Translations under genes and position numbers: made by a program
The notes under the pieces: model-generated
What the model was told of the DNA's origin: nothing
Database searches by the model: none
Seen by the model: the letters and a program-made list of their open reading frames with translations, nothing else
Part shown: one piece after another, positions 3,246-36,917 of the stretch
How positions within the stretch are numbered: the stretch's first letter is position 1
How the letters are laid out: every line of letters starts with the position of its first letter
Assembly (NCBI GenBank): GCA_964502005.1
Contig: CAZCUX010000001.1
Span: forward strand, 196,653 to 260,652
Source: an uncultured Enterobacterales bacterium
GTDB taxonomy: Bacteria; Myxococcota_A; UBA796; UBA2385
Reading direction: 5' to 3'
DNA: 64,000 nucleotides

Positions 3246-3959
3246 ATGAACGTATTGGTCACCGGTGGCTCGCGTGGAATCGGCCGCGCCATCGCTCTCA
3301 AGCTCGCCCGTCCGGGCGGTACCGTCGTAATCAACTACCTTCGCAATGACGCGCGTGCGCGGCAAGTAGCGGAGGAAGTCGAGGCGAAAGGCGCGCGTGC
3401 GATTGTCGTGCAGGCAGATGTGCGGAGCGAGGGCGACCTCAAGCGCCTCGCCGCTGCGGTCGACGGCGTGGATGTCCTCGTTCACAATGCCGCCGTGGGC
3501 GCGATGAAGTCGTACGACAAAATGCGTACTTCCCATTGGGACCTCACCCTCGAGAGCTCGTTGCGTCCGTTTTGGCTATTGACCAAGCTGGTGCGTATGA
3601 ACGCAGGCGGCAGCGTCATTGGAATCAGCTCCATGGGCTCCCAGCGCTACATTCCGGGCTACATCGCTATGGGCGCGTCCAAGGGCGGCCTCGAAGCGAT
3701 GACCCGGCAGTTGGCCGTCGAGTTGGCCCCCCAGAAGGTGCGGGTCAACACCGTTTGTGGCGGCCTGATTGAGACCGAGACCCTCGCGTACCTCACGGAA
3801 GGGGAGAAGATGCTCCAGTTCGCGCGGGAATATACGCCCCTCGGTCGCGCGGGTTCGCCGGACGATATCGCTGGAGCCGTGGCGATGTTGGTCAGTCCCG
3901 ATGCTGCGTGGGTCACCGGGCAGGTCGTGGTCGTAGATGGTGGCCTGTCCTTGTTGTGA
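3246..3959 (+). CDS. SDR-family oxidoreductase, FabL-like enoyl-ACP reductase type
   Basis: GGAGG lies 8 nt upstream of ATG 3246. The cofactor motif is VLVTGGSRGIGRAIA. There is an NAAVG block. The Y-x6-K spacing (YIAMGASK) is characteristic of enoyl-reductase-type SDRs rather than classical Y-x3-K. Confidence 0.8.
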   Translation: MNVLVTGGSRGIGRAIALKLARPGGTVVINYLRNDARARQVAEEVEAKGARAIVVQADVRSEGDLKRLAAAVDGVDVLVHNAAVGAMKSYDKMRTSHWDLTLESSLRPFWLLTKLVRMNAGGSVIGISSMGSQRYIPGYIAMGASKGGLEAMTRQLAVELAPQKVRVNTVCGGLIETETLAYLTEGEKMLQFAREYTPLGRAGSPDDIAGAVAMLVSPDAAWVTGQVVVVDGGLSLL

Positions 3960-4067
3960 CAGATGCGGCGCGCCACCGTTTTGACCCTTGATGGGGTCGC
4001 AACGGTGCGCAGGATGAACGGAGTCGCGTGGGGGGTTGCGCCCTGCAGCGGGTTGACGGAGGTGCGG

Positions 4068-4724
4068 ATGGGTCGCGAGCGTTCGTCCGAGGTAGAAGCC
4101 GACATTATCGACGTCGACCCTGGTGGGGCAGGCGACGCACCGCGTCCGTCCGACGACGCCGGTGGGCATTCGTCGGAGGACTTCTGGAATGGCGGCGTGT
4201 TCAAGCGCCTCAACATCGAGGTCGACCCCGATGCCGTCGATGAGTCCGTCCAGCGTATCGTCGACCAAATCAAGCGCGGGGTCGTGCGGGGTCGTTATAC
4301 CAAGGTTCGTATCAAGTTCAAAGGTAAGCCGCTCGTCCGCGATATTCCCCTCAGTGTCTTTGTTGCCGCAGAGGCGGTTAGTTTTGTATACGTCGGTTTG
4401 CTAAAGGCATTGGTGGTCAATCTTGGCGCGCGGGCGGTCATTGACGTCGAGCTCATTTATGAGGCGGACGAAGACGTCGCAGAGGGCCGTGCCCAGTGGG
4501 AAGCGGGGGAAGTGCAGGCAGCCGAACGCGCGTATCGGGCGGCGTTGGCCAAGGAGCCCAAGCACACCGAAGCACTGTATCGACTGGGCGTGCTGCTGCG
4601 GGTCACCGGGCAGCGCGACGAAGCTATTCAGCGGCTCGAAGCGGCAGCCGCAGCGGAAGGGCCTATGGCGGACCTCGCGCGCGAAGCCCTCGACCGCATG
4701 AAGCGCGGCCCGCGCACGCTTTGA
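4068..4724 (+). CDS. DUF4342-like domain protein with C-terminal TPR-like repeat
   Basis: GGAGG lies 6 nt upstream of ATG 4068. The core KVRIKFKGKPLVRDIPLSVFVAAEAVSFVYVGLLKALVVNLGARAVIDVELIYE fits the DUF4342 pattern. The C-terminus (AERAYRAALAKEPKHTEALYRLGVLL) is TPR-like. The track ORF starts earlier, at 3963. Confidence 0.6.
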   Translation: MGRERSSEVEADIIDVDPGGAGDAPRPSDDAGGHSSEDFWNGGVFKRLNIEVDPDAVDESVQRIVDQIKRGVVRGRYTKVRIKFKGKPLVRDIPLSVFVAAEAVSFVYVGLLKALVVNLGARAVIDVELIYEADEDVAEGRAQWEAGEVQAAERAYRAALAKEPKHTEALYRLGVLLRVTGQRDEAIQRLEAAAAAEGPMADLAREALDRMKRGPRTL

Positions 4725-4839
4725 GCCGCGGTGCGACTGCGGCGCGGGGAGGGTTCGGGCGGAGACCAATTCCTGTCCCAGATCGGTCGAAGCGGGTGCG
4801 AACCTTGGCCGAATCGCGCACGGTTCGATACCTGCTCGC

Positions 4840-5649
4840 ATGACTGTATCTCCTACGCACTTGTTGTCGGCCGACCTTCGGGGTCGGCATGCCCTTGTTT
4901 GTGGTGCCAGCGCCGGCATCGGTCGGGCCACCGCCCTGGCCTTGGCGGCCCAAGGCGCGCGCATCACCGCCCTCGCCCGGCGGGCAGACCGCCTCGAAGG
5001 CTTGTTGCCGGAGCTGCGGGCGGCGGGCGCGCCATCGGCCGTCGCGTTGGTGGCGGACTTTGATGCCCGCGACCAACTGTTCGCTTCGGTTCGTGCGGTG
5101 GTGGTTGAGCAAGGCCCCGTCCACATTCTCATCCACAATACGGGGGGGCCGGCGGGGGGCCCTTTGCTCGAAGCTCCCGGCGACGCCCTTTCGGCAGCGT
5201 TTGCGCGGCACGTCCTTACGGCCCATGGTCTGGCGCAAATTTTGGTGCCAGGCATGATAGAAGCCGGATTTGGTCGTATTGTCAACATCGTTTCTACAAG
5301 TGTCTACGAGCCCATTCCGGGGCTGGGCGTGAGCAACACCATTCGGGGCGCGATGGCGAGCTGGGCCAAGTCCTTGGCGGACGAGCTGCCGCCGGGTGTC
5401 ACCATCAACAACGTGTTGCCGGGCTTCACCGACACCGAGCGCTTGGCGGTCTTGGCTGAAGGACGGGCAGCGCGCGCGGGCACCGACGCCGGGGCCGTTC
5501 GCACCGCCTGGGTTGGGCAAGTCCCCGAAGGACGCCTCGCACGTCCCGAAGAAACGGCAGCCGCCGTGGCCTTTTTGTGCTCACCGGCCGCTGGTTATAT
5601 TCGTGGCGTCAGCCTTCCGGTCGACGGAGGCCGGCTGCGCGGCGTATAA
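4840..5649 (+). CDS. SDR-family oxidoreductase
   Basis: ALVCGASAGIGRATALALA is the TGxxxGxG-type motif. The text also shows IHNTGGP and the C-terminal GYIRGVSLPVDGG. Confidence 0.85.
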   Translation: MTVSPTHLLSADLRGRHALVCGASAGIGRATALALAAQGARITALARRADRLEGLLPELRAAGAPSAVALVADFDARDQLFASVRAVVVEQGPVHILIHNTGGPAGGPLLEAPGDALSAAFARHVLTAHGLAQILVPGMIEAGFGRIVNIVSTSVYEPIPGLGVSNTIRGAMASWAKSLADELPPGVTINNVLPGFTDTERLAVLAEGRAARAGTDAGAVRTAWVGQVPEGRLARPEETAAAVAFLCSPAAGYIRGVSLPVDGGRLRGV

Positions 5650-5750
5650 GCGCGAACATCGGTAGGTTCGGCGTTCGCGGTCGACCGTTTTGTGCTTTGG
5701 GTGGCCCCACAGGTCCACACCACAACCCTCGGAAGGGTGGGAAGGCAATC

Positions 5751-6992
5751 ATGCAGTACGATGTGTTTTTTAGCATCAGCCAAACCCCCGTGCGTGGGCA
5801 TTGTCCGTCCGAAGCGGAGATGTTTCGGGCGTTTTTTGACCAAGTGCAAGTGGCGGACGAGCTCGGCTACGGCACCGCGTGGGTCGCGGAAGCGCACCTG
5901 AGCACCGAGGTGCAGCAGCGGCATTCGCGGGCGGTGGTCCCCCATTGGCGTGGCGAGATTGGCCTGAACACCGATATTTTCCAGCTTGCACACCAGGTCT
6001 TCGCGCGCACCAAGCGGATTCATGTGGGCAGCGCCGTGACCAATATTTTGTGCAACGGTGGACCGGTGGCGGCGGCGGAACGTATTGCGGCCTTCGCGGC
6101 CTTGCATGGGCTCAATCCTGAAGAGCGGCGCACGCTACAGTTTGGTTTCTCGGCGGGGCGCTTTGAGTTTATGAACCGCGCGTATGGCATGGAGCCGCGC
6201 AATGCGCTCGAAGCGGTGGCGTGGCCGGCGTTGCGGGGGCAGATTTTCGGTCAGGGCTGCGAAATCTTGCTGCGTCTGATGAATGGCGAAGCGTTGGCGG
6301 GTTCCGACATCCCCGAGGTGGTGCTCGACCGGTCCTTTTTCCGCTCCGACGCCGACTGGGCGCGGGTGCAAGATGCGGCCCGCGCCGAAGGTCGCACGGA
6401 CCTCGACGCCATTCGCTTCGACCGTTGGTGGAACTTTGAGGTGCTGCGTATTGTGCCGCGCGAGTGGCGGCGCGAGTTGGTCGACCTTGTGGTCGGAAGC
6501 CACGACCCTGCGCTCCAAGAAGCCCTCAATCGCTGGCGTCCCGTCAAGGTGTTCAACCTTTCGATTACCCGGCCCGAGGTCATTGAAGACACCCATCGCC
6601 GGCTCGCGGCGGCCTTTCACGCGGACGGCGGACCTTGGAAGCGCGAATATATGCCGCGCACGGTCATGGTCTTCTTGAACGCACAGGCGGGCTTGTCGGC
6701 GGAGGAGCAGCAAAAGGCCGCCGAAGCGGAGGCCCAGGAGGCGCTCTCGGCCTATTGGACAGCCCTAGAAGGCACGCTCGACCCGGGCAAGGTCGCCCAA
6801 GCCACCGACAACGCTATCATCGGCAATGTCGAGAGCGTCGCGGCGCAGCTTGTCGACCGTTTTCACCCCGATGACCGCTTGATGTTGTGGTTCGACTTCT
6901 TCAACCACGACAGCGCGCGTGTCATCGAAAATATGCGCGCATTTCAAGAGCAGGTGGCGCCGGCAGTCGCCGCGCGCTTGGGTCAGGCGTAG
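5751..6992 (+). CDS. LLM-class (luciferase-like) flavin-dependent oxidoreductase
   Basis: ATG 5751 follows GGAAGG. The N-terminus MQYDVFFSISQTP...ADELGYGTAWVAEAHL is typical of luciferase-like monooxygenases. The 5' part of the track ORF (5577-5750) is Arg-rich and non-protein-like. The 3' end overlaps the convergent gene by 10 nt. Confidence 0.8.
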   Translation: MQYDVFFSISQTPVRGHCPSEAEMFRAFFDQVQVADELGYGTAWVAEAHLSTEVQQRHSRAVVPHWRGEIGLNTDIFQLAHQVFARTKRIHVGSAVTNILCNGGPVAAAERIAAFAALHGLNPEERRTLQFGFSAGRFEFMNRAYGMEPRNALEAVAWPALRGQIFGQGCEILLRLMNGEALAGSDIPEVVLDRSFFRSDADWARVQDAARAEGRTDLDAIRFDRWWNFEVLRIVPREWRRELVDLVVGSHDPALQEALNRWRPVKVFNLSITRPEVIEDTHRRLAAAFHADGGPWKREYMPRTVMVFLNAQAGLSAEEQQKAAEAEAQEALSAYWTALEGTLDPGKVAQATDNAIIGNVESVAAQLVDRFHPDDRLMLWFDFFNHDSARVIENMRAFQEQVAPAVAARLGQA

Positions 6993-25498: not shown

Positions 25499-25577
25499 CG
25501 TCGAAACACTCCGTTTGTGTGTTTACATGTCAACCTGCCCCAAACAGGGTAAGTTGCCGGCGTAGTCCGAGGTGTGG

Positions 25578-26141
25578 ATGTCCATATTGTTCCATCGGTT
25601 GGCGACCGTGGTTGTGTGTGGTATACTCGGTGGGATTGCCGTGACTGCGCATGCCGCAGACGACGACAAGCCAGCAAAAAAGCCGTTGCCCGCGGGAGAC
25701 GTCGTCGTGAGCCGGTCGGTTCGGGCCGACGCCGGCGATATTTACACTTGGTTGCTCGACCTGGACCACCACCGACAAGTGTGGCCGGAAGGGTGCACGA
25801 CCAAGTGGGAGTATGGCACCACAACGGCAGGTATTGGCGCAAACGCGCGGTTGACCTATCGGGTGGCCATGATGCGTCGTCGTTTGACCGCGACCGTGTC
25901 CGAAGGCGACCCTGGCCGTTACCTCAAAGTCGACCACGCGGGCCGCACCGGTTTCGCGACCACGTGGACCCTCAACGACCTTGGCTCGGGCCAAACGCGC
26001 GTAGAAGTACATACCTGGGTCGACCCTCCGCCTTGGCCCCTGACGGCCACGTACATGAACCGGATTCGTCCGGCGTGGACCGAGTGCCACCGGGGCCTGC
26101 TGGACAACCTTGCGCGGGAAATGACCGGCAGCGCGCCATAA
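25578..26141 (+). CDS. Secreted SRPBCC-family (polyketide cyclase/dehydrase-like) protein
   Basis: GAGG lies upstream of ATG 25578. The signal peptide is MSILFHRLATVVVCGILGGIAVTAHA. SRPBCC-like beta-rich segments include IYTWLLDLDHHRQVWP. Confidence 0.6.
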   Translation: MSILFHRLATVVVCGILGGIAVTAHAADDDKPAKKPLPAGDVVVSRSVRADAGDIYTWLLDLDHHRQVWPEGCTTKWEYGTTTAGIGANARLTYRVAMMRRRLTATVSEGDPGRYLKVDHAGRTGFATTWTLNDLGSGQTRVEVHTWVDPPPWPLTATYMNRIRPAWTECHRGLLDNLAREMTGSAP

Positions 26142-26263
26142 AGCCCGCGTAGGTACACTGACGCAAGAGTGCGTTTGGTTGATTTGGGTCAGATTCGATG
26201 AATCGTTTCGACCCATTCCCGGTGTTTTGTACGATTGTCTGAAATTTTCCTTGGCTTGATTTC

Positions 26264-27733
26264 ATGCGTGCCCGAAGGGCGCCTATGAAATCGTCCGAAC
26301 TTCAGCTTCAAAACCTAAACGCCCTATTTATGGTTCCTGTGCTCCCTGTGGCCCTGTGTGGGTTTTCGGTGGTTGCCTTGGGCTTGGGTGCATTCGTCAC
26401 CATCGACGGACGGGCGTGGGCCCTCGCCCACGAGCTGCACGCGGGAACCCTGACCCCTGCGTCGATTACCGAGTACAGCGGGTGGGTGCGGCGGTACGTC
26501 ATGGCCACCACAGCGATTGGTGCGCTATTGGTGCCGTTGAGTGCGGCCGCGTCGTTTGTGGTGCTGCGGCGGGTGGTTGAACGCATTGATGCAGCGGTCA
26601 TTTTCGCCGAAAATCGATTGCGTGGACAGGCGGCGTCTTTGGTGTTGGGCCACACCGATTGTGGCTTGGGACGCATCGAGCGTTGCCTCGTTGCGCTCTC
26701 GCATGCAATCGAAGAGCGGGACGATGCGTTTCAGGCAGAAGCGCAGGGCGCGCGCTTAGAAGGTGAGCTTCAGCGCGCTCTCGAACTCGTCGACGACGAA
26801 GCTGACGTGATGGATGTGACCGTCCGCGCGTTGTTTCAAGTTGTGCCGGAGGGGGCCGTAGAGTTGCTCTTGGCCGATTCGAGTCAAGCCCACTTGCGGC
26901 GAGCCGTCGCAACGCCGGCGATGCCGCACGTTGGATGCGCGGTGGCATCCCCCAACGAATGCGCGGCTGTTCGACGCGGAAGCACGCTGATGTTTGCCTC
27001 GTCGGAGGCCCTTGATGCTTGCCCGCGTACCCGTGGCCGGGCCGTCGGAGGCTGCTCGGCGGTCTGCACGCCGGTGACGGTGATGGGGCGGACTATCGGC
27101 GTCATGCATCTCCAAGGCGATGAACACACGCTGCCGAGCGCGGGGGAGCTTCGTCATTTCCAATCTATCGCGGCCAATGTTGGCACACGGTTGGGTGTCT
27201 TGCGAACGCTCGCCGAAACCCAACGCGCAGCCCGCACCGACCCGCTGACCGGCCTCATGAACCGTCGCACCTTTGAAGCCGAAGCGACACGGCGTATGGC
27301 AAGTGTAGGACATGGCTTGTTGGTGATGGCCGACATCGACCACTTCAAGCGTCTCAACGACACCCATGGCCACCAAACCGGCGACCGTGCCATTTGCCTC
27401 TACTCGCGGGTGATTCGGGAAGGTCTGCGCGAAGACATCGACCTTGTGGCCCGGTATGGTGGCGAGGAGTTTATTCTGCTGCTCCCCGGTCTCGATCTCG
27501 ACGCGGGTCTCGCGCGCCTCGAAGCGGTGCGGAAGCGCCTGGACGACGCGCTCCGCGGTAGCGAGGTCCCGCGATTTACTTGTAGCATGGGCGTGGCGCA
27601 GTTTCCCGTCGATGGCGACTCCCTCCACGCGCTCACCCAAGTCGCCGACACCGCGCTGTACGCCGCCAAGCGCAACGGCCGCGACCGCATAGAAGTCGCC
27701 CTACAATCGGAGATTGCGGCCGCCGCACGTTGA
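26264..27733 (+). CDS. Membrane-anchored diguanylate cyclase (GGDEF domain, GGEEF active site)
   Basis: Two N-terminal hydrophobic segments are followed by a GAF-like middle region. The catalytic region reads DPLTGLMNRR...DIDHFKRLNDTHGHQTGD...ARYGGEEF. An alternative ATG lies at 26285. Confidence 0.85.
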   Translation: MRARRAPMKSSELQLQNLNALFMVPVLPVALCGFSVVALGLGAFVTIDGRAWALAHELHAGTLTPASITEYSGWVRRYVMATTAIGALLVPLSAAASFVVLRRVVERIDAAVIFAENRLRGQAASLVLGHTDCGLGRIERCLVALSHAIEERDDAFQAEAQGARLEGELQRALELVDDEADVMDVTVRALFQVVPEGAVELLLADSSQAHLRRAVATPAMPHVGCAVASPNECAAVRRGSTLMFASSEALDACPRTRGRAVGGCSAVCTPVTVMGRTIGVMHLQGDEHTLPSAGELRHFQSIAANVGTRLGVLRTLAETQRAARTDPLTGLMNRRTFEAEATRRMASVGHGLLVMADIDHFKRLNDTHGHQTGDRAICLYSRVIREGLREDIDLVARYGGEEFILLLPGLDLDAGLARLEAVRKRLDDALRGSEVPRFTCSMGVAQFPVDGDSLHALTQVADTALYAAKRNGRDRIEVALQSEIAAAAR

Positions 27734-27826: not shown

Positions 27827-28744
27827 ATGCCGACTCCGAACCCTGGTGGTGGCCGCATTGTCGCCGGCGCCATCGCTCCTCACCCGCCCCATTTGGTCTA
27901 CGCGGAAAATCCTCCCCAAAATGAACCGCGGGCGGAGTGCGGGTGGGAGAACCTTCGGTGGGGCTATGAGCGCCTTCGTCGCAATCTCAGCGCCCTGGAC
28001 ATCGACGTTATCGTGGTGCATTCCCCCCACTGGAAGACGTCCCAGGGCCACCATTTGTTGGCGGCGCCGCATTTCAAGTCCTTGAGCGTCGACCCCATCT
28101 TCCCGAACTTGTTTCGGTACCACTACGACCTCGCGGTGGACGTCGCGCTCGCAGAAGCCATCGCCGAAGAAGGCGGCCAAGCGGGCCTCACGATGCAGCT
28201 CATGCGGAATCCCGACTTCCGCGTGGACTATGGCACCATTACGTCCTGCCATCTCACGCGCCCCCAGTGGGACATCCCGATTGTCGCGATTTCCTCCAAT
28301 CGGGTCTATTTCGATTATAACAATGATGTGGGCGACCGCCAAATGGTTGCGCTTGGACGCGCAACGCGGCGCGCAGTCGAGCGATTGGGGCGCCGAGCGT
28401 TGTTGTTGGCAAGCAATTCTTTGTCACACCGCCACTTCACGGACGAGTCCGAGCTTCCCGAGGACATGTCCAAAGAGCGTATCTACCATCACGGCCAGTA
28501 CATCTGGGACATGCACGTGCTCGACTTGATGAAGAAGGGCCGCTGTCGGCAATTGATGGCGGAGATGCCTGACTTCATCGAGCACGCGACCAGCGAAGCC
28601 AAAGACGGCAGCTTGTCTTGGTTGATGGGGGCTCTGGAGTTCCCCGACTATCCCGCGGAAGTACACGCTTACGGGACCGTCATTGGTACCGGAAATGCCG
28701 TGGTGGAGTGGCAGCCCCCCGTTGTCGGGATGGAGGCACGATGA
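27827..28744 (+). CDS. LigB-type extradiol ring-cleavage dioxygenase, catalytic (AmnB/beta-like) subunit
   Basis: GGAGG lies 6 nt upstream of ATG 27827. Blocks: GAIAPHPPHLV, IVVHSPHW and SNSLSHRH, which carry the His residues expected for the LigB-family Fe site and catalytic base. Confidence 0.75.
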   Translation: MPTPNPGGGRIVAGAIAPHPPHLVYAENPPQNEPRAECGWENLRWGYERLRRNLSALDIDVIVVHSPHWKTSQGHHLLAAPHFKSLSVDPIFPNLFRYHYDLAVDVALAEAIAEEGGQAGLTMQLMRNPDFRVDYGTITSCHLTRPQWDIPIVAISSNRVYFDYNNDVGDRQMVALGRATRRAVERLGRRALLLASNSLSHRHFTDESELPEDMSKERIYHHGQYIWDMHVLDLMKKGRCRQLMAEMPDFIEHATSEAKDGSLSWLMGALEFPDYPAEVHAYGTVIGTGNAVVEWQPPVVGMEAR

Positions 28745-30177
28745 CTGTCGAGCTTGCCCTGATTGTACCTCGGATGCCGCATCCGCTGCTGTGTCCCGAT
28801 GCGAGCCCCGGCTACCGCGCCCTGGCCGACGCCTACGCCGAAGCGCGCCGGCGCATCGCCGACCTCAAACCCGACGTGCTCGTGCTGTATAGCGCCGGTT
28901 GGCCTTGTGTGGTGGGGCACCAGATTCAGGCCGACCCCAACCCCACCTGGGTCCACGTCGACCAGGACTTTCACGCGCTCGGGAGCATTCCGTATTCCTT
29001 GCGCATGGACCCCCAGTTCGGCGCGGATTGGTGCCAATCTGCGACAGAACGTGGCCTGCATTGCCGAACCGTCGCCTACCGCGGCTTTCCCATCGACACC
29101 GGTACGGTCACCGCGTTGAAGCTGCTCGACCCCGACTCCCGTATTCCGGCCAGCGTGGTGTCATGCAATATGTATGCCGACCGTGCCGAGACGGTCGTTT
29201 TGGGCAAGGCGGCGGCCGATGTGCTGTCGCAGCGGGGCATACGCGCGGTCGCGGTCGCCGTGACCAACCTGAGCCATCGGCTCCTCCCGGTCCCGGTGCC
29301 TCCGTCCGAAGACCGCTTTGCGTCGATGAAAGACGACGAGTGGGTGCGGAAGCTGCTCGAAATCTTGGGCGAAGGGCGCCTCGAAGACGTGAGCCAGCTT
29401 GCGCGAACGTTTACCGCCCAAGCCCACGCCGATTCCAAGCTCAAGGCCATTTGGTGGCTCGCGGCGGTCTCGGGTGCCCACAACCGGTACCAAGGCGAAG
29501 TTCTCGCGTATGCGCCGGTGCAAGGAACCGGCTGTGCTGTGGTGGCCTTGACGCCCGACCGCACTGGCGCGGCGGGGCTTGAGTTCGATGAAGACGACGT
29601 AGACGTGTTCCGCGGCGACCGAAACGTGCTGGCCGCGGCACCGGGCCAAACCGTCGAAGTGGCACCCGCGCCCGTCGCGAAGCCCGCGCCCAAAGCGGCC
29701 GCGCCCGTTGCGCGCGCCGGTCGGGTGGATGTTGCCGCGGACCAAGCGCCGAAGCCCGTCGGCGCGTACCCCCACGCCCGCCGTGTCGGCGACCTGTTGT
29801 TCTTGTCCGGGGTCGGCCCGCGGCAGCCCGGCACCGACGCCATTCCGGGCGGTCCCGTGCGCGACGCCGCCGGTCAACCGGTCGATTACGACATCGAGGC
29901 GCAGACCCGCGCCGTCATCGAAAACGTGCGCCGCATCTTGGAAGCCTCGGGGTCCTCCCTTGACCGCGTGCTGGACGTCACCACGTTTCTGGTCAACATG
30001 GACCGCGACTTTGCAGGCTACAACAAGGTCTACGGTGAGATGCTCGGCAAGGTCGGGCCCACCCGCACCACGCTCGCGATTCGCGCGTTGCCGACCCCCA
30101 TCGCGATCGAGCTAAAGGTGGTCGCCGCTGCTGGAGATGTCGATATGGCGCGGCTTACCGGTGGACAACGTGGCTGA
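28741..30177 (+). CDS. Fusion protein: LigB-type non-catalytic (AmnA/alpha-like) subunit plus C-terminal RidA/YjgF-family deaminase
   Basis: ATG 28741 overlaps the upstream stop (ATGA). The N-domain parallels the previous gene, but the HSPHW position reads YSAGW. An Ala/Pro linker (APAPVAKPAPKAAAPVA) follows. The RidA blocks are PKPVGAYPHARRVGDLLFLSGVG, IEAQTRAVIENVRRIL and GPTRTTLAIRALPTPIAIELKVVA. Confidence 0.75.
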   Translation: MTVELALIVPRMPHPLLCPDASPGYRALADAYAEARRRIADLKPDVLVLYSAGWPCVVGHQIQADPNPTWVHVDQDFHALGSIPYSLRMDPQFGADWCQSATERGLHCRTVAYRGFPIDTGTVTALKLLDPDSRIPASVVSCNMYADRAETVVLGKAAADVLSQRGIRAVAVAVTNLSHRLLPVPVPPSEDRFASMKDDEWVRKLLEILGEGRLEDVSQLARTFTAQAHADSKLKAIWWLAAVSGAHNRYQGEVLAYAPVQGTGCAVVALTPDRTGAAGLEFDEDDVDVFRGDRNVLAAAPGQTVEVAPAPVAKPAPKAAAPVARAGRVDVAADQAPKPVGAYPHARRVGDLLFLSGVGPRQPGTDAIPGGPVRDAAGQPVDYDIEAQTRAVIENVRRILEASGSSLDRVLDVTTFLVNMDRDFAGYNKVYGEMLGKVGPTRTTLAIRALPTPIAIELKVVAAAGDVDMARLTGGQRG

Positions 30178-30838
30178 CCGTCGCCTCTACGACATCACGC
30201 CGCGCATCAGCCCGCGGTTGGCGGTGTTCCCTGGCGACACAGCCTTTTCGCGCGCCGTGCTGCTTTCGATGGCCGACGGCGCCAACATCGACCTCTCGTC
30301 GATGACGACAACATTGCACCTGGGCGCCCACGCCGATGCACCGTCGCACTACACCCCCCATGGCGTCAGCATCGCCGACCGCGACCCCCGGCGCTATCTC
30401 GGTCGCTGCCAGGTGGTGTCGGTCCCCGATACCCGTGGCCGAAGGGTCACGGTCGACGACCTTCGCGAGCCCGTGATGGCGCCGCGCGTGCTGTTTTTTA
30501 CGCACTCGTTTCCCGCGCCGGAGCAGTGGAATGGCGACTTCGCTTCTTTGTCGCCAGAGCTGATTGCGCATCTTCACGACGATTGCGGTGTGTCGCTCGT
30601 GGGCATCGATACGCCGAGCGTTGACCCCGAGACCGACCGGGACCTGCCCTCCCACGCTGCTCTCGCGGCGCGCGATATGGCGGTGCTCGAAGGTTTGGTG
30701 CTGCACGATGTCCCGCCGGGCATCTACACCCTGATTGCGCTGCCCTTGCCCATCGAAGGCGGCGACGCGAGCCCGCTCCGCGCGGTGTTGCTCGAAGGCG
30801 ATTGGGGCCTCGATGCCCTCGCGCTCGCCGGGTCTTGA
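30137..30838 (+). CDS. kynB: Kynurenine formamidase (cyclase-family arylformamidase)
   Basis: LYDITPRISPRLAVFPGDTAF...TTLHLGAHADAPSHY contains the HxGxHxDxPxH metal motif, and GIDTPSVD is present. The start is uncertain: ATG 30137 overlaps the upstream gene by 41 nt, and GTG 30170 overlaps it by 8 nt. Confidence 0.8.
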   Translation: MSIWRGLPVDNVADRRLYDITPRISPRLAVFPGDTAFSRAVLLSMADGANIDLSSMTTTLHLGAHADAPSHYTPHGVSIADRDPRRYLGRCQVVSVPDTRGRRVTVDDLREPVMAPRVLFFTHSFPAPEQWNGDFASLSPELIAHLHDDCGVSLVGIDTPSVDPETDRDLPSHAALAARDMAVLEGLVLHDVPPGIYTLIALPLPIEGGDASPLRAVLLEGDWGLDALALAGS

Positions 30839-31134
30839 GCCACTGAATCGCCATTCATTTCTGGAGCGCCACGCAAGAAGACGCTTCCGCGCCCACAAGA
30901 GGGACCGCCAGAAGGAGATTGCGCGTATCCCTAGGAAAGAGGGCATCGTCCCCAGCTGCGCCAAGTCCGAAGTCGCGCAAATCTACCCGAGCGCCTTGCG
31001 ACTCGCCGGTATCGCGCCCATGTCCGGTGAGGTCTTCTGGCCGCACGGTTCCTGGGCCGGATAAACCAATCGGCCCCCCGTTGGGAGACATCACAACGAG
31101 GGGCGAAGTGTATCCGGAAGTCGGGCGGCCGCTG

Positions 31135-31685: not shown

Positions 31686-31897
31686 CGGCAACTCCTTCGG
31701 TTAGCGGCGGGGCGGCAGGCTAACCGCCCCCTCACACTCTCATTACGGGGAGGGGGGCGGAGAAGTATACGTTCCGGTGGCGGGAGTGGGCCTTTCCAGC
31801 AGCACGCGGGGCATTCACCAAGGCGCGCTTCGCACCTCGGCGCACGGCGAGGAGGCGTCCGACCATCGCCGGACGCCCTGGGACATAAGCCGGAAGC

Positions 31898-32716: not shown

Positions 32717-32719
32717 GGG

Positions 32720-34480: not shown

Positions 34481-35674
34481 TTACAAACGGGGACGGCCTC
34501 GAATTCCGAAGTCGTAAAAATCGACATCCACGACCGGGGGCACCAGCTCCCGCGGCAACAGCAGCGTGCGAACGCTCCACAGGTCGGCGAAGATGCGGTG
34601 GCGGGTGGTGCGGTCGAGATAGTCCACGCCGCTTGAGCCTCCGGTGCCCACGCGCCGGCCAATGACGCGCTCGACCATCCGGGCGTGGCGCGTTCGGAAC
34701 AACACAAGCTGTTCTTCGACTTCGACGACTGTATCCAACAATAGCCGAGGCCATGCGAGCAAGGGCAACGAGCGGTGGCTCTCGATGAACAGCAACGCGG
34801 CGCGAATCCGTCGGCGTCGCGCACGGGCGGCGGTTATGTCGGCTCCGGCGGGAAGGTTGGACTCATCGAGGTCTTCGGCATTGAGAAACTGGCGTGCGGT
34901 GATGCGCGATTGGGCGAAGCGAACCTCGACCTCTTCGGCGGCGGTCAAGCCGGTGGCGACCAAGCGCTCGGTTTGGCGCTGGTAATGCACATCCAGAGCT
35001 TGCTCGTATTCATCGAGAAATGCGTCGACCACGTCGTTGTCATTGGCATCACCCGGAGACGACCCATTGATGGGCGTGCGGTACAGCCAATCGTGGAGGC
35101 CTGCGCGAATGGTGTGGCCTTGCTGTGCATCCGCGGTGGCCTTCGACAGCCGCTCCCAGGCCAATGCGCCTGTTGGCGAATGTTGGGCGAGTTCGCGGAT
35201 ATGGTCGAGCGCATCGGTCTTCCCGTAGGTTTCCCGGTGGTCGGGCTGGAGACCAAGGACGATCTCCAGCTCGCGCATCTGAAAGCTCTGAAACCCACTC
35301 GCGGGCATCAGCTTTTCGCGGAAGCCCAAAAAGTCCTGGGGTGTGAGCGTCTCAATGATGTGAAACTGCTCGACCGCGAGGCGAAGAATTTGCCCCACAC
35401 GGCGCAAGTGGTGGACCACATGGGGAATGGTCGCTTCATCGACGGGGCCTTGGAGAAACAACGAGACCGTCTCGCGTAGCTCCCGCAGCACCATCTTGAA
35501 CCACAGCTCATAGGCTTGATGGACGATGATGAACAGCAGCTCATCGGGAACCATCGACGCTTCGTCGCCCTCTAGGCCTCCTTGGAGCGCAAGAAGTTTG
35601 TCGAGGGAGAGGTAGTCCCAATAGTTCGGGACACGGGGCGTAGGCGCCGAAGGGGAGGGGGGAAGGGTCGTCAC
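34481..35674 (-). CDS. kynA: Tryptophan 2,3-dioxygenase
   Basis: GGAGG lies upstream of GTG 35674. YWDYLSLDKLLALQ...DELLFIIVHQAYELWFKMVLRELR is the TDO signature helix. The C-terminal GGSSGVDYL block carries the heme-proximal region. The 134 codons upstream in the track ORF are not protein-like. Confidence 0.8.
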   Translation of the reverse strand: MTTLPPSPSAPTPRVPNYWDYLSLDKLLALQGGLEGDEASMVPDELLFIIVHQAYELWFKMVLRELRETVSLFLQGPVDEATIPHVVHHLRRVGQILRLAVEQFHIIETLTPQDFLGFREKLMPASGFQSFQMRELEIVLGLQPDHRETYGKTDALDHIRELAQHSPTGALAWERLSKATADAQQGHTIRAGLHDWLYRTPINGSSPGDANDNDVVDAFLDEYEQALDVHYQRQTERLVATGLTAAEEVEVRFAQSRITARQFLNAEDLDESNLPAGADITAARARRRRIRAALLFIESHRSLPLLAWPRLLLDTVVEVEEQLVLFRTRHARMVERVIGRRVGTGGSSGVDYLDRTTRHRIFADLWSVRTLLLPRELVPPVVDVDFYDFGIRGRPRL

Positions 35675-35807
35675 GGTGCCTCCAAGTGACAACACTGTAA
35701 TGCTGTCCGGGCCGCTGCGTGATGGCCGGACCCCGGTGGAGGGTACGAATGTGCTACCTTTCCGCGCACTTTGGCGGCCGTCGTCGTTCGCCAGCAGGAG
35801 GCAAGCA

Positions 35808-36917
35808 ATGATTCGTCCGGTCCGTATGGTGGCGCTGGCTTCGGTTGTGGGTGTTTGGGGTGGTTGTGACAAAGCGTCTACGGACCCTGCCGTGCCCAAA
35901 GCAGCGGTAGAGAAGGCGTTTGCAGACGCAAACCCCGGCGGTCGCTCGTCCGTGGAGCTGGGCGGTCGAAATGTGTGGCTCGAAGCGGGGATGTTTGTCC
36001 CCGGATGTCTGGAGTCCAAAGACCTCGCATTCAACGACATTCCCGCCGAGCGTCCTTCGGGATCTGCGCCGCGCATTTCGCCGACGTATGCGAACCAGCG
36101 CTACATCACGGGCACAAGCGAGCGCGGCGTTTGTGTGGTGTTGGGCGCCGACCCCCAAGCCACGGTCACCAACGTGGTGTACGACGGTGCCGAATGGGTC
36201 GTCGATTACACTGTCGCCGTCTCGGAGCCAACGCCTTGGTTTGAATGTTTGATGGACCGCATCAAAAACAACCAAGCCACGGTCAAAATCGCCGAGGACG
36301 GCACCGCGAGCGTGCAGCAGGACCTCACCTTGTTGCGGGGCGGCTGCTCCCTCGACCTGCCCAAAGATGTCGAGCGACGGGGGGGTGACCGCCCGACCGC
36401 GAAGCCTCCAAAGCCGCCCACCGCCGAGGCCGTCGCCGCGCTCGCACGCGACTTCGACAAAGCGCTCTTTGAGGCAGACTTTGTGGCCGCGCGAAAGTTG
36501 GTTCGCTGTGTCAACTTGTTTGAATCGCCCATGTGGGATGCGTGCGCCCTTTCGGAGCTGATTGCGGTGGGGCCGTCGTTTTCGGGCGAGCCGCGTGGAC
36601 GCGACGGCACCCCTTGGATGGAATACGTCGTGCGCGGCCCGGATGAGTTTGCGCGGATTGTGCCGGAACGTGGTGACCCTACGCTTTTTCACGTCATGAT
36701 GAAGCACAAGCGGAGCGGCGCCGACCGCAGCTTTACGGTGCAGTGGGCAGACGGAAAGTGGCATTTGTTTGGCGTGGTGCAGCTCAAGGCCGAAGGGCTC
36801 ACGGCGATGCGGTTTGTCAACGACCTGCACGACCGCAAGAAGATGGACATTCTTGAGCGACGCATCAAGGGCGACAAGATTGACCATCTCGGCAATCCCA
36901 TCGAAGAAGAGGAATAA
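35808..36917 (+). CDS. Lipoprotein, function unknown
   Basis: AGGAGG lies upstream of ATG 35808. The lipobox is MIRPVRMVALASVVGVWGGC. Confidence 0.7.
   Translation: MIRPVRMVALASVVGVWGGCDKASTDPAVPKAAVEKAFADANPGGRSSVELGGRNVWLEAGMFVPGCLESKDLAFNDIPAERPSGSAPRISPTYANQRYITGTSERGVCVVLGADPQATVTNVVYDGAEWVVDYTVAVSEPTPWFECLMDRIKNNQATVKIAEDGTASVQQDLTLLRGGCSLDLPKDVERRGGDRPTAKPPKPPTAEAVAALARDFDKALFEADFVAARKLVRCVNLFESPMWDACALSELIAVGPSFSGEPRGRDGTPWMEYVVRGPDEFARIVPERGDPTLFHVMMKHKRSGADRSFTVQWADGKWHLFGVVQLKAEGLTAMRFVNDLHDRKKMDILERRIKGDKIDHLGNPIEEEE

What the first reader, a model, noticed from the sequence alone, without database searches (positions are those of the whole stretch)
27827..30838. Aminophenol-type ring-cleavage module (AmnB-like, AmnA-like-RidA, kynB) with overlapping genes but no kynureninase, KMO or HAAO
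Three consecutive plus-strand genes overlap: ATGA at 28741-28744, and an 8-41 nt overlap at the kynB start. The first is a LigB-family dioxygenase subunit that keeps the expected His residues (APHPPH, HSPHW, LSHRH). The second is a paralogous subunit that lost one of them (YSAGW) and is fused to RidA. The third is kynurenine formamidase. In the known 2-aminophenol pathway, AmnA/AmnB is the dioxygenase and AmnD, a RidA-family protein, is the 2-aminomuconate deaminase. Coupling those parts to kynB, with kynA 4 kb away, suggests a non-canonical route from tryptophan-derived arylamines. No kynureninase, kynurenine monooxygenase, cupin-type 3-hydroxyanthranilate dioxygenase or AmnC-type dehydrogenase is visible anywhere in this window.
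Basis: partly seen in the sequence, partly recalled or inferred. Interest (0 to 1): 0.65.

Follow-up and report, generated by a model that had tools for sequence, protein, structure and literature searches.

The report
Aminophenol ring-cleavage operon tied to tryptophan breakdown
Three overlapping genes encode a 2-aminophenol-type ring-opening dioxygenase, fused to the deaminase of the same pathway and coupled to a formamidase, and they belong to a widespread, uncharacterised gene set in marine archaea and soil and marine bacteria that probably degrades tryptophan without the usual kynurenine-pathway enzymes.

Summary
Three translationally coupled genes sit at 27827-30838. They encode AmnB (about 65% identical to solved 2-aminophenol 1,6-dioxygenase beta subunits), an AmnA-like alpha subunit fused to an AmnE/AmnD-type 2-aminomuconate deaminase, and a KynB-type arylformamidase. 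A eukaryote-like TDO lies 3.6 kb away. The 64-kb window has no kynureninase, KMO, cupin HAAO, ACMSD or aldehyde dehydrogenase.

About 125 related loci show that this trio is the core of a conserved, undescribed gene set. In Myxococcota and Acidobacteriota the order is TDO-SDR-LLM-asparaginase-II-like hydrolase-AmnC-AmnB-AmnA::RidA-KynB. In Marine Group II archaea it is alpha/beta-hydrolase-SDR-TPR-LLM-hydrolase-AmnC...AmnB-AmnA::RidA-permease. In this window the SDR-TPR-SDR-LLM block lies 21 kb upstream. The hydrolase and AmnC are not in the window.

My best reading is a kynureninase-independent route. The LLM would cut (N-formyl)kynurenine by Baeyer-Villiger-type oxygen insertion. The asparaginase-like enzyme would release L-aspartate, and the formamidase would free 2-aminophenol. 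AmnAB, AmnC and the RidA domain would then convert it to 4-oxalocrotonate. The enzyme families are shown. The substrate and the first steps are inferred. This is a new variant of a known kind.

The parts
27827..28744 (+). amnB-like: catalytic beta subunit of a 2-aminophenol 1,6-dioxygenase (LigB superfamily), 305 aa
   Evidence: Pfam LigB E 1.9e-26. PDB matches 3vsg_B E 3.5e-113, 8ihg_A 1.6e-111 and 7txy_B 1.4e-101, ungapped over 293 residues. His19, His68, Glu257 and His201 align with CnbCb 13/62/251/195.
28741..29556 (+). amnA-like domain of gene 2 (residues 1-272): non-catalytic alpha subunit, a paralogue of the beta subunit
   Evidence: PDB matches 7txy_A E 7e-53, 3vsg_A 9e-40 and 8ihg_B 1e-33. 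It is 29% identical to gene 1. Both His ligands are replaced (Arg10, Gly53).
29578..29631 (+). conserved acidic motif L-EFDEDDV-x-V-F/Y-x-G-D/E-R-x-V-L (residues 280-297), followed by a variable Pro/Ala-rich linker (to about 29730)
   Evidence: The motif is invariant or nearly so in 18 and in 32 fusion proteins from bacteria and archaea. It is absent from free-standing AmnA proteins, which end before it. pLDDT is about 40 in the monomer model. It is probably a docking motif (inference).
29731..30177 (+). RidA domain of gene 2 (residues 331-463, plus tail): AmnD/AmnE-type 2-aminomuconate deaminase
   Evidence: Pfam Ribonuc_L-PSP E 1.6e-22. Best PDB match is 6izh_A, 2-aminomuconate deaminase, E 3e-30, against 4e-21 for the next RidA. 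The alignment runs through the long Lp2 loop that generic RidAs lack (PMC6742747). The conserved Ser-Gly, Arg442 and Lys459 are present.
30137..30838 (+). kynB-like arylformamidase (cyclase family); the likely start is GTG 30170
   Evidence: Pfam Cyclase E 3.4e-14. TIGR03035 arylformamidase scores 179.9 bits, below the 223.05 cut-off. PDB KynB matches 4cog E 6e-40, 4cob and 4co9. The motif H61-x3-H65-x-D67-x3-H71 is present.
34481..36076 (-). tryptophan 2,3-dioxygenase ORF; the TDO domain spans 34481-35626 and the first ~150 codons of the ORF are probably not translated
   Evidence: Pfam Trp_dioxygenase E 1.8e-54. The best PDB matches are Drosophila and human TDO, E 2e-45. The orthologue in L039 is called at 389 aa. 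TDO lies in the same cluster in L004, L007, L009, L010, L023, L027, L052, L076 and L092.
3246..6992 (+). detached block SDR (3246-3959), TPR protein (4068-4724), SDR (4840-5649), luciferase-like monooxygenase LLM (5751-6992): the upstream part of the conserved gene set
   Evidence: tblastn: SDR 54-56% and LLM 56-61% identical to the cluster genes of L009, L010 and L011. Gene calls and Pfam. The same SDR-TPR-SDR-LLM order occurs in L130 and L131. LLM model has pLDDT 86.5 and a luciferase-like fold.
25572..27733 (+). upstream neighbours: SRPBCC/Polyketide_cyc2 protein (25572-26141) and GAF-GGDEF protein (26264-27733); possible accessory or regulatory genes
   Evidence: Pfam. An SRPBCC gene precedes amnB in L001, L002, L003, L020 and L039. 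A GGDEF protein precedes TDO in L009, L023 and L027. Membership in the system is not shown.

Best explanation
The three genes form one operon. It encodes the ring-opening end of a conserved, uncharacterised catabolic pathway for a tryptophan-derived N-formyl arylamine. Shown by sequence: gene 1 plus the N-terminal domain of gene 2 make an AmnB/AmnA-type (alpha2beta2) 2-aminophenol 1,6-dioxygenase. The C-terminal domain of gene 2 is an AmnD/AmnE-type 2-aminomuconate deaminase tethered by a flexible linker. Gene 3 is a metal-dependent arylformamidase. Inferred from conserved gene neighbourhoods: TDO opens tryptophan to N-formylkynurenine. The luciferase-like flavin monooxygenase (5751-6992 in this window) inserts oxygen between the aryl ring and the ketone of (N-formyl)kynurenine, a Baeyer-Villiger-type reaction, giving a beta-aspartyl aryl ester (or, after O-to-N shift, an N4-aryl-asparagine). 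The asparaginase-II-like hydrolase releases L-aspartate. KynB (or the alpha/beta-hydrolase in the archaeal version) removes the formyl group before or after this. The freed 2-aminophenol is cleaved by AmnAB to 2-aminomuconate semialdehyde, oxidised by AmnC and deaminated by the fused RidA domain to 4-oxalocrotonate. An SDR may reduce this further. The fusion and the conserved acidic motif probably keep the deaminase, and perhaps AmnC, next to the dioxygenase, so that the unstable semialdehyde does not cyclise to picolinate. My estimates: enzyme-family assignments about 0.9; link to a tryptophan or kynurenine-type substrate about 0.65; the specific Baeyer-Villiger/aspartate-release route about 0.35.
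For: Family identity.

The operon is conserved. In 29 bacterial genome loci anchored on the fusion, AmnB is present in 26/26, KynB in 19/20 and AmnC in 14/21. TDO, LLM and the hydrolase are each present in 7-8 of 15 loci with 9 kb of upstream flank. Stop/start overlaps are kept in relatives.

Reverse test: in 70 low-GC metagenome loci anchored on the asparaginase-like gene, LLM is present in 57/57, AmnC 58/58, AmnB 35/35, the RidA domain 31/32, TPR 43/43 and SDR 40/43.

Fully co-directional cluster in L009: TDO-SDR-LLM-hydrolase-AmnC-AmnB-AmnA::RidA-KynB. Compact variants place the hydrolase directly against the core: L132 has hydrolase-AmnB-AmnA::RidA-KynB; L032, L054 and L063 have (RidA-)KynB-hydrolase-AmnB-AmnA.

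The ALDH of the clusters is closest to solved 2-aminomuconate-6-semialdehyde dehydrogenases, E 1e-150 to 1e-157.

The hydrolase keeps the ReAV catalytic residues, including Arg47, which holds the alpha-carboxylate of L-Asn. This fits a beta-aspartyl substrate. Only the Zn ligand Lys138 is changed, to an invariant Glu (PMC12292245).

The LLM is a confident luciferase-like TIM barrel. Its structural neighbours include flavin monooxygenases, RutA and a type II Baeyer-Villiger monooxygenase.

KynB and the alpha/beta-hydrolase are mutually exclusive across loci, and no locus has both. This suggests that a hydrolase step of that kind is obligatory.

No KMO, kynureninase, HAAO or ACMSD family recurs in any set of loci or occurs in the window.
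Against: There is no biochemical or expression evidence.

In this window the hydrolase and AmnC are missing, and the LLM block is 21 kb away. The pathway is therefore assembled from relatives.

TDO is on the opposite strand, separated from kynB by a HEAT-repeat gene, a protein-arginine deiminase (PAD) gene and an unannotated ORF. It is found near the operon in only about half of the bacterial loci with enough flank.

The archaeal loci have neither TDO nor KynB within 10 kb (0/43 and 0/32). The alpha/beta-hydrolase is not detectably close to the eukaryotic kynurenine formamidases in the PDB.

The LLM fold does not reveal its chemistry; the Baeyer-Villiger enzyme 5aec ranks only 50th. No flavin reductase is in any cluster. 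SDR and TPR have no assigned step.

KynB scores below the NCBIfam equivalog cut-off.

No lower meta-pathway genes were seen, so the fate of 4-oxalocrotonate is open.
Confidence: 0.6

Rival explanations
1. Hydroxylation variant. The LLM hydroxylates kynurenine to 3-hydroxykynurenine (a non-homologous KMO). The AmnAB-like enzyme cleaves 3-hydroxykynurenine (or 3-hydroxyanthranilate) directly. The asparaginase-like serine hydrolase then removes the beta-aspartyl side chain from the ring-fission product by C-C hydrolysis, giving L-aspartate and 2-aminomuconate semialdehyde for AmnC and RidA.
For: It uses the same conserved gene set. 3-Hydroxykynurenine is itself an o-aminophenol. The hydrolase keeps the alpha-carboxylate anchor Arg47. 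The PDB fold matches include HcbA1, annotated there as hexachlorobenzene monooxygenase; reading it as an aromatic-hydroxylating LLM rests on my own knowledge.
Against: AmnB is about 65% identical, without gaps, to enzymes characterised on 2-aminophenol. A substrate with a bulky ortho side chain would be expected to reshape the pocket. No ACMSD-type decarboxylase occurs anywhere, which argues against 3-hydroxyanthranilate. C-C hydrolysis by a class 3 asparaginase fold has no precedent that I know of. Aromatic hydroxylation is rare among LLMs.
Confidence: 0.15
2. An ordinary aminophenol or anilide degradation module unrelated to tryptophan. The formamidase-like enzyme de-acylates some other N-acyl or N-formyl aminophenol (for example from nitroaromatic, benzoxazinoid or phenoxazinone turnover). 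AmnAB, AmnC and RidA run the known 2-aminophenol meta pathway. TDO proximity is coincidental.
For: AmnB, AmnA, AmnC and the deaminase are all closest to enzymes from pollutant-degrading amn/cnb clusters. KynB is below its equivalog cut-off. Many loci have the trio without TDO nearby.
Against: TDO lies inside the co-directional cluster in Acidobacteriota and Myxococcota. KynB is closest to genuine kynurenine formamidases. The hydrolase keeps an amino-acid alpha-carboxylate anchor, and the archaeal clusters end with an amino-acid permease. The lower amn genes did not recur among the flanking genes of any locus; nitroreductase and mutase genes were not specifically looked for. The gene set is abundant in open-ocean metagenomes, where such xenobiotics are unlikely.
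Confidence: 0.15
3. A biosynthetic or protective role rather than catabolism. The module makes picolinate-type chelators or signalling molecules from aminophenols, or detoxifies auto-oxidising aminophenols. The RidA domain quenches reactive enamine/imine by-products.
For: 2-Aminomuconate semialdehyde cyclises spontaneously to picolinate (title and abstract of PMC3790839). The window type lacks AmnC nearby. A GGDEF signalling protein is adjacent.
Against: AmnC is adjacent in most relatives (58/58 in the archaeal loci). A deaminase of the AmnE type acts after AmnC, which drives flux away from picolinate. No tailoring or export genes are conserved.
Confidence: 0.05

Closest known systems
amn / cnb / nbz 2-aminophenol meta-cleavage clusters (Pseudomonas sp. 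AP-3 amnBACDFEHG-type, Comamonas CNB-1 CnbCab, Burkholderia xenovorans LB400 amnRJBACDFEHG)
   Same: A heteromeric LigB-type dioxygenase made of a catalytic beta subunit and an iron-free paralogous alpha subunit. It is followed in the pathway by 2-aminomuconate semialdehyde dehydrogenase and a RidA-family 2-aminomuconate deaminase. Sequence similarity to these enzymes is high (PMC3790839, PMC6742747).
   Different: The alpha subunit is fused to the deaminase through a conserved acidic motif and a Pro/Ala linker. An arylformamidase is translationally coupled. No lower-pathway genes (decarboxylase, hydratase, aldolase, acetaldehyde dehydrogenase) recur in the flanks. The partners are TDO, an LLM, an asparaginase-II-like hydrolase, an SDR and a TPR protein. 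The hosts are uncultured Myxococcota, Acidobacteriota and Marine Group II archaea rather than pollutant degraders.
ARO bacterial microcompartment of Actinobacteria (Micromonospora rosaria; PDB 7TXY; PMC10470539)
   Same: It contains the closest solved alpha subunit (7txy_A, E 7e-53). It has the same early enzymes (dioxygenase, AldDh, deaminase). Both appear to keep the early, unstable intermediates confined.
   Different: Confinement, if any, would come from gene fusion rather than encapsulation. That paper reports no kynurenine or tryptophan genes in ARO loci.
Bacterial tryptophan catabolism via 3-hydroxyanthranilate (Burkholderia kynurenine-pathway cluster; nba genes of Pseudomonas fluorescens KU-7)
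   Same: It starts with TDO and KynB. It converges on 2-aminomuconate semialdehyde, then 2-aminomuconate, and then a dedicated RidA-family deaminase (bioRxiv 10.64898/2026.06.05.730449; the rest from my own knowledge of Colabroy and Begley 2005).
   Different: That route needs KMO, kynureninase, cupin HAAO and ACMSD. None of these is in the window or recurs in about 125 related loci. Here a LigB-type aminophenol dioxygenase takes the ring-opening role, and alanine release by kynureninase would be replaced by aspartate release.
4-Hydroxyacetophenone pathway of Pseudomonas fluorescens ACB (Baeyer-Villiger monooxygenase HAPMO, aryl esterase, hydroquinone dioxygenase); own knowledge, a resemblance in logic only
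   Same: An aryl ketone is converted to an aryl ester, the ester to a phenol, and the phenol is ring-cleaved. This is the logic proposed here for kynurenine.
   Different: HAPMO is a type I (FAD/NADPH) enzyme, whereas here the candidate is a luciferase-like (type II-like) protein. The hydrolase here is an asparaginase fold. Nothing here has been tested.
Rut pyrimidine pathway (RutA LLM, RutB amidase, RutC RidA, RutD alpha/beta-hydrolase)
   Same: The same combination of enzyme families: LLM oxygenase, amidohydrolase, RidA and alpha/beta-hydrolase. RutA is among the structural matches of the LLM.
   Different: Rut has no ring-cleavage dioxygenase or ALDH. The RidA domain scores only 2e-6 against the RutC model, versus 1.8e-23 for the generic Rid model, and its best solved match is the 2-aminomuconate deaminase 6izh. 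The substrates are unrelated.

Membership tests
2-aminophenol 1,6-dioxygenase (AmnAB/CnbCab; LigB superfamily) | Catalytic beta subunit with the 2-His-1-carboxylate iron site and the catalytic His | tested here: met
   His19, His68, Glu257 and His201 align without gaps to CnbCb His13, His62, Glu251 and His195. The residue roles come from my own knowledge of LigB/CnbC structures.
2-aminophenol 1,6-dioxygenase (AmnAB/CnbCab; LigB superfamily) | Adjacent paralogous alpha subunit that lacks the iron ligands | tested here: met
   The gene 2 N-terminal domain is 29% identical to gene 1, with His19->Arg and His68->Gly. The best PDB matches are alpha subunits.
2-aminophenol 1,6-dioxygenase (AmnAB/CnbCab; LigB superfamily) | Closer to characterised aminophenol dioxygenases than to other LigB-type enzymes | tested here: met
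   E 1e-101 to 1e-113 for AmnB-type chains, against 4e-16 for 3,4-dihydroxyphenylacetate 2,3-dioxygenase. The TIGR02298 HpaD score of 97.6 bits is far below its 315.95 cut-off.
2-aminophenol 1,6-dioxygenase (AmnAB/CnbCab; LigB superfamily) | Cleaves 2-aminophenol to 2-aminomuconate 6-semialdehyde | not testable with these tools
   Needs an enzyme assay.
2-aminomuconate deaminase (AmnD/AmnE/NbaF; RidA family) | RidA fold with the conserved cleft residues (Ser-Gly, Arg, Lys) | tested here: met
   Pfam PF01042 E 1.6e-22. S356/G357, R442 and K459 are invariant or nearly so in the family alignments. They correspond to AmnE Ser35/Gly36, Arg117 and Lys135 (PMC6742747).
2-aminomuconate deaminase (AmnD/AmnE/NbaF; RidA family) | Extended Lp2 loop that distinguishes AmnE from generic RidA proteins | tested here: met
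   The alignment to 6izh runs through the loop with 3 gap positions. Alignments to PH0854 and TTHA0137-type RidAs open a 12-13-residue gap there.
2-aminomuconate deaminase (AmnD/AmnE/NbaF; RidA family) | Free-standing protein of about 140 aa (a homohexamer in AP-3) | tested here: not met
   Here it is the C-terminal domain of a 478-aa fusion. All 120 listed homologues share the fusion. Unfused versions exist in L032 and L063.
Kynurenine formamidase KynB (cyclase family, TIGR03035) | Cyclase-family fold with the HxxxHxDxxxH metal motif | tested here: met
   PF04199 E 3.4e-14. H61, H65, D67 and H71 are present. Best PDB matches are the KynB structures 4cog, 4cob and 4co9.
Kynurenine formamidase KynB (cyclase family, TIGR03035) | Reaches the curated equivalog score | tested here: not met
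   179.9 bits against a cut-off of 223.05. It may be a diverged arylformamidase with a different preferred formanilide.
Canonical kynurenine pathways (kynA-kynB-kynU anthranilate branch; KMO-kynureninase-HAAO-ACMSD branch) | Kynureninase, with or without KMO, HAAO and ACMSD, encoded with kynA/kynB | tested here: not met
   None of these is in the 64-kb window, in 5 kb beyond its right end, or among recurrent families in about 125 related loci. The rest of the genome could not be examined.
Complete amn-type meta-cleavage operon | AmnC and lower-pathway genes (4-oxalocrotonate decarboxylase, hydratase, aldolase, acetaldehyde dehydrogenase) alongside amnAB | tested here: not met
   The window has no Aldedh. 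AmnC is adjacent in relatives. Lower-pathway families do not recur in any locus set.
ARO bacterial microcompartment | BMC shell proteins encoded with the dioxygenase | tested here: not met
   tblastn with a PduA-like BMC-H probe gave no hit in the window (best E 1.6) or in any locus at 1e-3.

The most novel reading that the evidence does not exclude
This is the ring-opening core of a globally distributed, kynureninase-, KMO- and HAAO-independent tryptophan catabolic pathway. It is shared, probably by horizontal transfer, between Marine Group II archaea, Myxococcota and Acidobacteriota. In it a luciferase-like flavoenzyme performs a Baeyer-Villiger cleavage of (N-formyl)kynurenine. A class 3 asparaginase homologue releases L-aspartate, and 2-aminophenol becomes a normal intermediate of amino-acid metabolism. 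The AmnA::RidA fusion joins a two-fold-symmetric dioxygenase to a three-fold-symmetric deaminase. With its invariant acidic docking motif, it would build a supramolecular assembly that channels the unstable aminomuconate semialdehyde, a fusion-based counterpart of the actinobacterial ARO microcompartment.
Probability: 0.3. Interest if true: 0.85.

Novelty: new variant of a known kind. Interest (0 to 1): 0.72.

Why it matters
If the inference holds, 2-aminophenol, known mainly as a pollutant intermediate, would be a natural intermediate of tryptophan breakdown in abundant uncultured marine and soil microbes. It would come from a third way of dismantling kynurenine, one that releases aspartate rather than alanine or anthranilate.

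The inference would assign functions to four large unannotated or mis-annotated protein families:
- the AmnA::RidA fusion
- a 410-aa luciferase-like monooxygenase
- an 'asparaginase' that is about 79% conserved across two domains of life
- an arylformamidase clade

It would also add a carbon and nitrogen route to the metabolism of Marine Group II archaea. And it would offer a natural example of stabilising a labile meta-cleavage intermediate by enzyme fusion instead of a microcompartment.

The hypothesis can be tested directly with four to six recombinant proteins and commercially available substrates.

Tried and rejected
1. Canonical genes hidden in the window. Pfam sweeps of all sizeable ORFs found none. 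The 429-aa FAD enzyme at 61526-62815 is DAO-type, not KMO. The PLP enzyme at 58273-59280 is a beta-eliminating lyase or threonine-aldolase type, not kynureninase.

2. Looking beyond the window. Only short Logan contigs could be fetched. About 1.5 kb on the left and about 5 kb on the right show no kynurenine genes. The 575-kb NCBI contig named was not retrievable, and one look-up found nothing.

3. Literature. Six full-text searches found no paper linking kynB/TDO to amnAB, no Baeyer-Villiger route for kynurenine and no Marine Group II aminophenol report.

4. LLM chemistry from structure. The model is good, but Foldseek gives only generic luciferase-like neighbours at TM about 0.5-0.6. phmmer against the PDB was essentially empty. 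The afdb50 library was unavailable.

5. The alpha/beta-hydrolase as a eukaryote-type kynurenine formamidase. No such PDB match was found; the best is a carboxylesterase. The equivalence to KynB therefore rests only on mutually exclusive distribution.

6. The formyltransferase-like gene at the same position in L011, L014 and L085 was noted but not interpreted further.

7. Promoter and terminator scans gave nothing above chance.

8. My first greedy ORF caller picked antisense ORFs in high-GC loci. It was replaced by codon-position GC filtering.

9. Cultured carriers. None was identified. The best case is a closed 6.87-Mb metagenomic contig.

10. Recurrent archaeal neighbours (panB, AspRS, SAM synthetase, a Lon-substrate-binding-domain protein, GH1, glutathione peroxidase) were rejected as pathway members. 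They are housekeeping synteny.

Full report
**Observation**

The region 27827-30838 holds three plus-strand genes, exactly as described.
- Gene 1 (27827-28744, 305 aa) ends in the ATGA at 28741-28744, which also starts gene 2 (28741-30177, 478 aa).
- Gene 3 starts at ATG 30137 (41-nt overlap) or at the in-frame GTG 30170 (8-nt overlap) and ends at 30838.
- Gene callers used a 4-8-nt overlap in relatives.
- Pfam gives LigB for gene 1, LigB plus Ribonuc_L-PSP for gene 2 and Cyclase for gene 3.

**Identity of the three proteins**

Gene 1 aligns without a gap over 293 residues to the beta subunits of solved 2-aminophenol / 2-amino-5-chlorophenol 1,6-dioxygenases. The matches are 3vsg_B E 3.5e-113, 8ihg_A 1.6e-111 and 7txy_B 1.4e-101. 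The next LigB enzyme, a homoprotocatechuate dioxygenase, scores only 4e-16. His19, His68, Glu257 and His201 sit at the positions of the iron ligands and the catalytic His.

The first 272 residues of gene 2 match the alpha subunits of the same enzymes (7txy_A 7e-53). They are 29% identical to gene 1, with both His ligands replaced by Arg10 and Gly53.

The C-terminal domain of gene 2 is a RidA fold. Its best solved relative is the 2-aminomuconate deaminase AmnE (6izh, E 3e-30), against 4e-21 for the next RidA. The alignment runs through the long Lp2 loop, which the AmnE paper describes as absent from the three RidA homologues it compared (TdcF, YEO7, hp14.5) (PMC6742747).

Gene 3 is closest to solved KynB kynurenine formamidases (4cog, E 6e-40) and keeps the HxxxHxDxxxH metal motif. 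It scores 179.9 bits against the NCBIfam arylformamidase equivalog, whose cut-off is 223.

**Anatomy of the fusion**

After the AmnA domain comes an 18-residue motif, L-EFDEDDV-x-V-F/Y-x-G-D/E-R-x-V-L (residues 280-297). It is invariant or nearly so in fusion proteins from Myxococcota, Acidobacteriota and archaea. A Pro/Ala-rich linker of variable length follows, and then the RidA domain.

In an AlphaFold monomer model both domains are confident, but the motif and the linker are not (pLDDT about 40). This is what one expects of a short docking motif that binds another chain. That reading is an inference.

All 120 listed homologues have the LigB + RidA architecture. A few are about 830 aa, which would fit AmnB-AmnA-RidA triple fusions; this was not checked.

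**The window**

A TDO ORF lies at 34481-36076 on the minus strand. It is closer to insect and human TDO than to bacterial TDO.

Pfam scans of essentially all sizeable ORFs, plus tblastn with cluster proteins, found none of the following:
- a kynureninase-type enzyme
- KMO (the FAD enzyme at 61526-62815 is DAO-type)
- a 3-HAO cupin
- ACMSD
- an aldehyde dehydrogenase

About 5 kb beyond the right end also shows nothing relevant. The absence claims are therefore confirmed for the window. The rest of the genome could not be read.

**Related loci anchored on the fusion**

A genome scan returned 37 loci from MAGs labelled Myxococcota or 'Deltaproteobacteria', Acidobacteriota (Holophagaceae, Solibacteraceae) and Marine Group II archaea (Poseidoniales, Thalassarchaeaceae).

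| Partner gene | Bacterial loci with enough flank | Archaeal loci |
|---|---|---|
| AmnB | 26/26 | 5/5 |
| KynB | 19/20 | 0/7 |
| AmnC-type ALDH | 14/21 | 3/5 |
| TDO | 7/15 | 0/5 |
| LLM | 7/15 | 3/5 |
| Asparaginase-II-like hydrolase | 8/15 | 3/5 |

The clearest example is L009 (Acidobacteria). All of its genes are co-directional: TDO-SDR-LLM-hydrolase-ALDH-AmnB-AmnA::RidA-KynB. The ALDH is closest to solved 2-aminomuconate-6-semialdehyde dehydrogenases, E 1e-150 to 1e-157. AmnC is therefore part of the system and is only missing from this window.

**Reverse test anchored on the hydrolase**

The hydrolase is strikingly conserved, with 79% mean column identity between bacteria and archaea. 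A metagenome scan found at least 484 stretches encoding it, and 80 loci were fetched.

| Gene in the 70 low-GC, archaeal-type loci | Present / loci with enough flank |
|---|---|
| LLM | 57/57 |
| AmnC | 58/58 |
| AmnB | 35/35 |
| RidA domain | 31/32 |
| TPR protein | 43/43 |
| SDR | 40/43 |
| alpha/beta-hydrolase | 37/43 |
| Amino-acid permease with an EF-hand tail | 27/32 |
| KynB | 0/32 |
| TDO | 0/43 |

- High-GC loci repeat the bacterial order, with TDO and KynB.
- No locus has both KynB and the alpha/beta-hydrolase.
- Compact variants put the hydrolase directly against the core. L132, a closed 6.87-Mb contig, has hydrolase-AmnB-AmnA::RidA-KynB. L032, L054 and L063 have (RidA-)KynB-hydrolase-AmnB-AmnA, with an unfused RidA in L032 and L063.
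- Clustering all flanking ORFs revealed no other recurrent pathway family. The remaining recurrent archaeal neighbours are housekeeping genes.

**This window's version**

The orthologous SDR (4840-5649) and LLM (5751-6992) lie 21 kb upstream of amnB, in a block SDR-TPR-SDR-LLM. The SDR is 54-56% and the LLM 56-61% identical to the cluster genes of L009-L011. The same block is conserved in the closest relatives. The hydrolase and AmnC are not in the window.

**Accessory proteins**

The hydrolase belongs to the class 3 (Rhizobium etli) asparaginases. It keeps Arg47, Ser48, Lys51, Ser80, Cys135, His139, Asp187, Cys189 and Lys263. Only the zinc ligand Lys138 is replaced, by an invariant Glu. In ReAV, Ser48 is the nucleophile that forms a beta-aspartyl enzyme, and Arg47 holds the substrate alpha-carboxylate (PMC12292245).

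The LLM has almost no sequence match in the PDB. It still models confidently (pLDDT 86.5) as a luciferase-like barrel. Its structural neighbours include RslO1, luciferases, RutA, F420 enzymes and, at rank 50, a type II Baeyer-Villiger monooxygenase. The family is confirmed. The chemistry is not.

**Proposed mechanism**

Shown: the window encodes a competent AmnAB-type dioxygenase, an AmnE-type deaminase domain and an arylformamidase in one operon. These genes are evolutionarily linked to TDO, AmnC, an LLM and a beta-aspartyl-type hydrolase.

Inferred steps:
1. TDO makes N-formylkynurenine.
2. The LLM attacks the aryl ketone with a flavin peroxide and inserts oxygen. The electron-rich aryl group migrates, giving a beta-aspartyl aryl ester.
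3. The asparaginase-like enzyme releases L-aspartate.
4. KynB removes the formyl group. Its tight coupling to amnAB rather than to TDO fits deformylation of 2-formamidophenol just before ring cleavage. Deformylation at the kynurenine stage is equally possible. In the archaeal clusters the alpha/beta-hydrolase would do this step.
5. AmnAB opens 2-aminophenol.
6. AmnC oxidises the semialdehyde.
7. The tethered RidA domain deaminates 2-aminomuconate to 4-oxalocrotonate.

The SDR may reduce a downstream product. This guess rests only on the absence of lower meta-pathway genes.

The logic parallels the 4-hydroxyacetophenone pathway (own knowledge).

The fusion joins a dimer-forming enzyme to a trimer- or hexamer-forming one. 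Together with the acidic motif it may hold the three early enzymes together. In Actinobacteria the same enzymes sit in the ARO microcompartment (PMC10470539).

**Rival explanations**

- A hydroxylation variant: the LLM makes 3-hydroxykynurenine, AmnAB cleaves it, and the hydrolase removes aspartate by C-C hydrolysis. This uses the same genes. It fits less well with the ungapped 65% identity of AmnB to 2-aminophenol enzymes and with known asparaginase-fold chemistry.
- A tryptophan-independent anilide or aminophenol degradation module. This is weakened by TDO lying inside the clusters, by the amino-acid features of the hydrolase and the permease, and by abundance in open-ocean metagenomes.
- A picolinate or detoxification role. 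This is weakened by the near-universal AmnC.

**Known versus new**

Each enzyme family is known, and the dioxygenase-AmnC-deaminase sequence is the classical upper 2-aminophenol pathway. I found the following described nowhere in the searchable literature:
- the AmnA::RidA fusion with its conserved motif
- the obligatory formamidase
- the LLM and asparaginase-like partners
- the absence of kynureninase, KMO, HAAO and ACMSD
- the distribution in Marine Group II archaea, Myxococcota and Acidobacteriota

**Limits**
- There is no experimental evidence.
- The genome outside the window is unread.
- No TDO or KynB is near the archaeal clusters.
- No flavin reductase is in any cluster.
- SDR and TPR have no assigned step.
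- The equivalence of KynB and the alpha/beta-hydrolase rests only on their distribution.

Noticed in passing
window 29578-29631 (residues 280-297 of gene 2): An invariant acidic motif, LEFDEDDVxV(F/Y)xG(D/E)RxVL, lies between the AmnA domain and the Pro/Ala linker. It is conserved from archaea to Acidobacteria and predicted disordered in the monomer model. It may be a docking peptide for AmnB, AmnC or a neighbouring protomer.
   Followed up: partly
window 31898-34390 (minus strand); also L001 and L039: A HEAT-repeat protein and a protein-arginine deiminase (PAD, Pfam E 6e-61) lie between kynB and TDO. HEAT-PAD-TDO is conserved in the closest relatives, and L039 adds a MOSC-domain gene. Bacterial PADs are uncommon (own knowledge). 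The link to TDO is unexplained.
   Followed up: no
window 34481-36076 (minus strand): The TDO is closer to Drosophila and human TDO (E 2e-45) than to bacterial TDO (E 6e-32), with an insertion relative to the bacterial model. The 531-codon ORF has about 150 N-terminal codons without a match. Since the orthologue is called at 389 aa, the true start is probably internal.
   Followed up: partly
L009:6205-7302, L014:3340-4506 and alignment A1: The asparaginase-II-like protein is 69-93% identical between Acidobacteria, Myxococcota and Marine Group II archaea (79% mean column identity). This points to recent inter-domain transfer or unusually strong constraint. Its zinc ligand Lys138 is always Glu.
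   Followed up: partly
window 25572-26141 and 26264-27733: An SRPBCC (Polyketide_cyc2) gene precedes amnB in the window, L001-L003, L020 and L039. In the window a GAF-GGDEF diguanylate cyclase is inserted between it and amnB. A GGDEF protein also precedes TDO in the acidobacterial clusters L009, L023 and L027.
   Followed up: partly
window 8904-11818 (minus strand); L041 4933-7829: A UvrD helicase with an embedded RNase T exonuclease domain (815 aa) and an acetyltransferase lie next to the SDR-LLM block in the window and next to the amnB operon in L041. This hints that the two blocks were once adjacent.
   Followed up: no
P0013, P0020, P0054 (about 830 aa) and P0068 (708 aa): Some homologues of the fusion are long enough to be AmnB-AmnA-RidA triple fusions. 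Conversely, L032 and L063 have an unfused RidA gene placed before kynB.
   Followed up: no
L013, L016, L018, L021, L022, L024 (for example L021 11362-11979, minus strand): In Acidobacteriota a conserved gene of 195-205 aa lies on the opposite strand between amnA::ridA and kynB. Its N-terminus looks like a signal peptide (judged by eye). It was not scanned against any family library.
   Followed up: no
L011 513-, L014 408-1253, L085 6323-: In three archaeal loci the position upstream of SDR, normally held by the alpha/beta-hydrolase, is occupied by a Formyl_trans_N-like protein. Its best PDB matches are the 10-formyl-THF dehydrogenase hydrolase domain and PurN. It is another formyl-handling fold at the same place.
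   Followed up: partly
window 61526-62815 (+): A DAO-family FAD oxidoreductase (E 8e-50) lies next to a 2-oxoacid dehydrogenase E1 gene. It is not KMO-like and is probably unrelated to the finding.
   Followed up: partly
window 30919-31704 (+): A 261-codon ORF directly after kynB has no Pfam match and no tblastn match even in the 77-84% identical relative L001. It may not be a real gene.
   Followed up: partly
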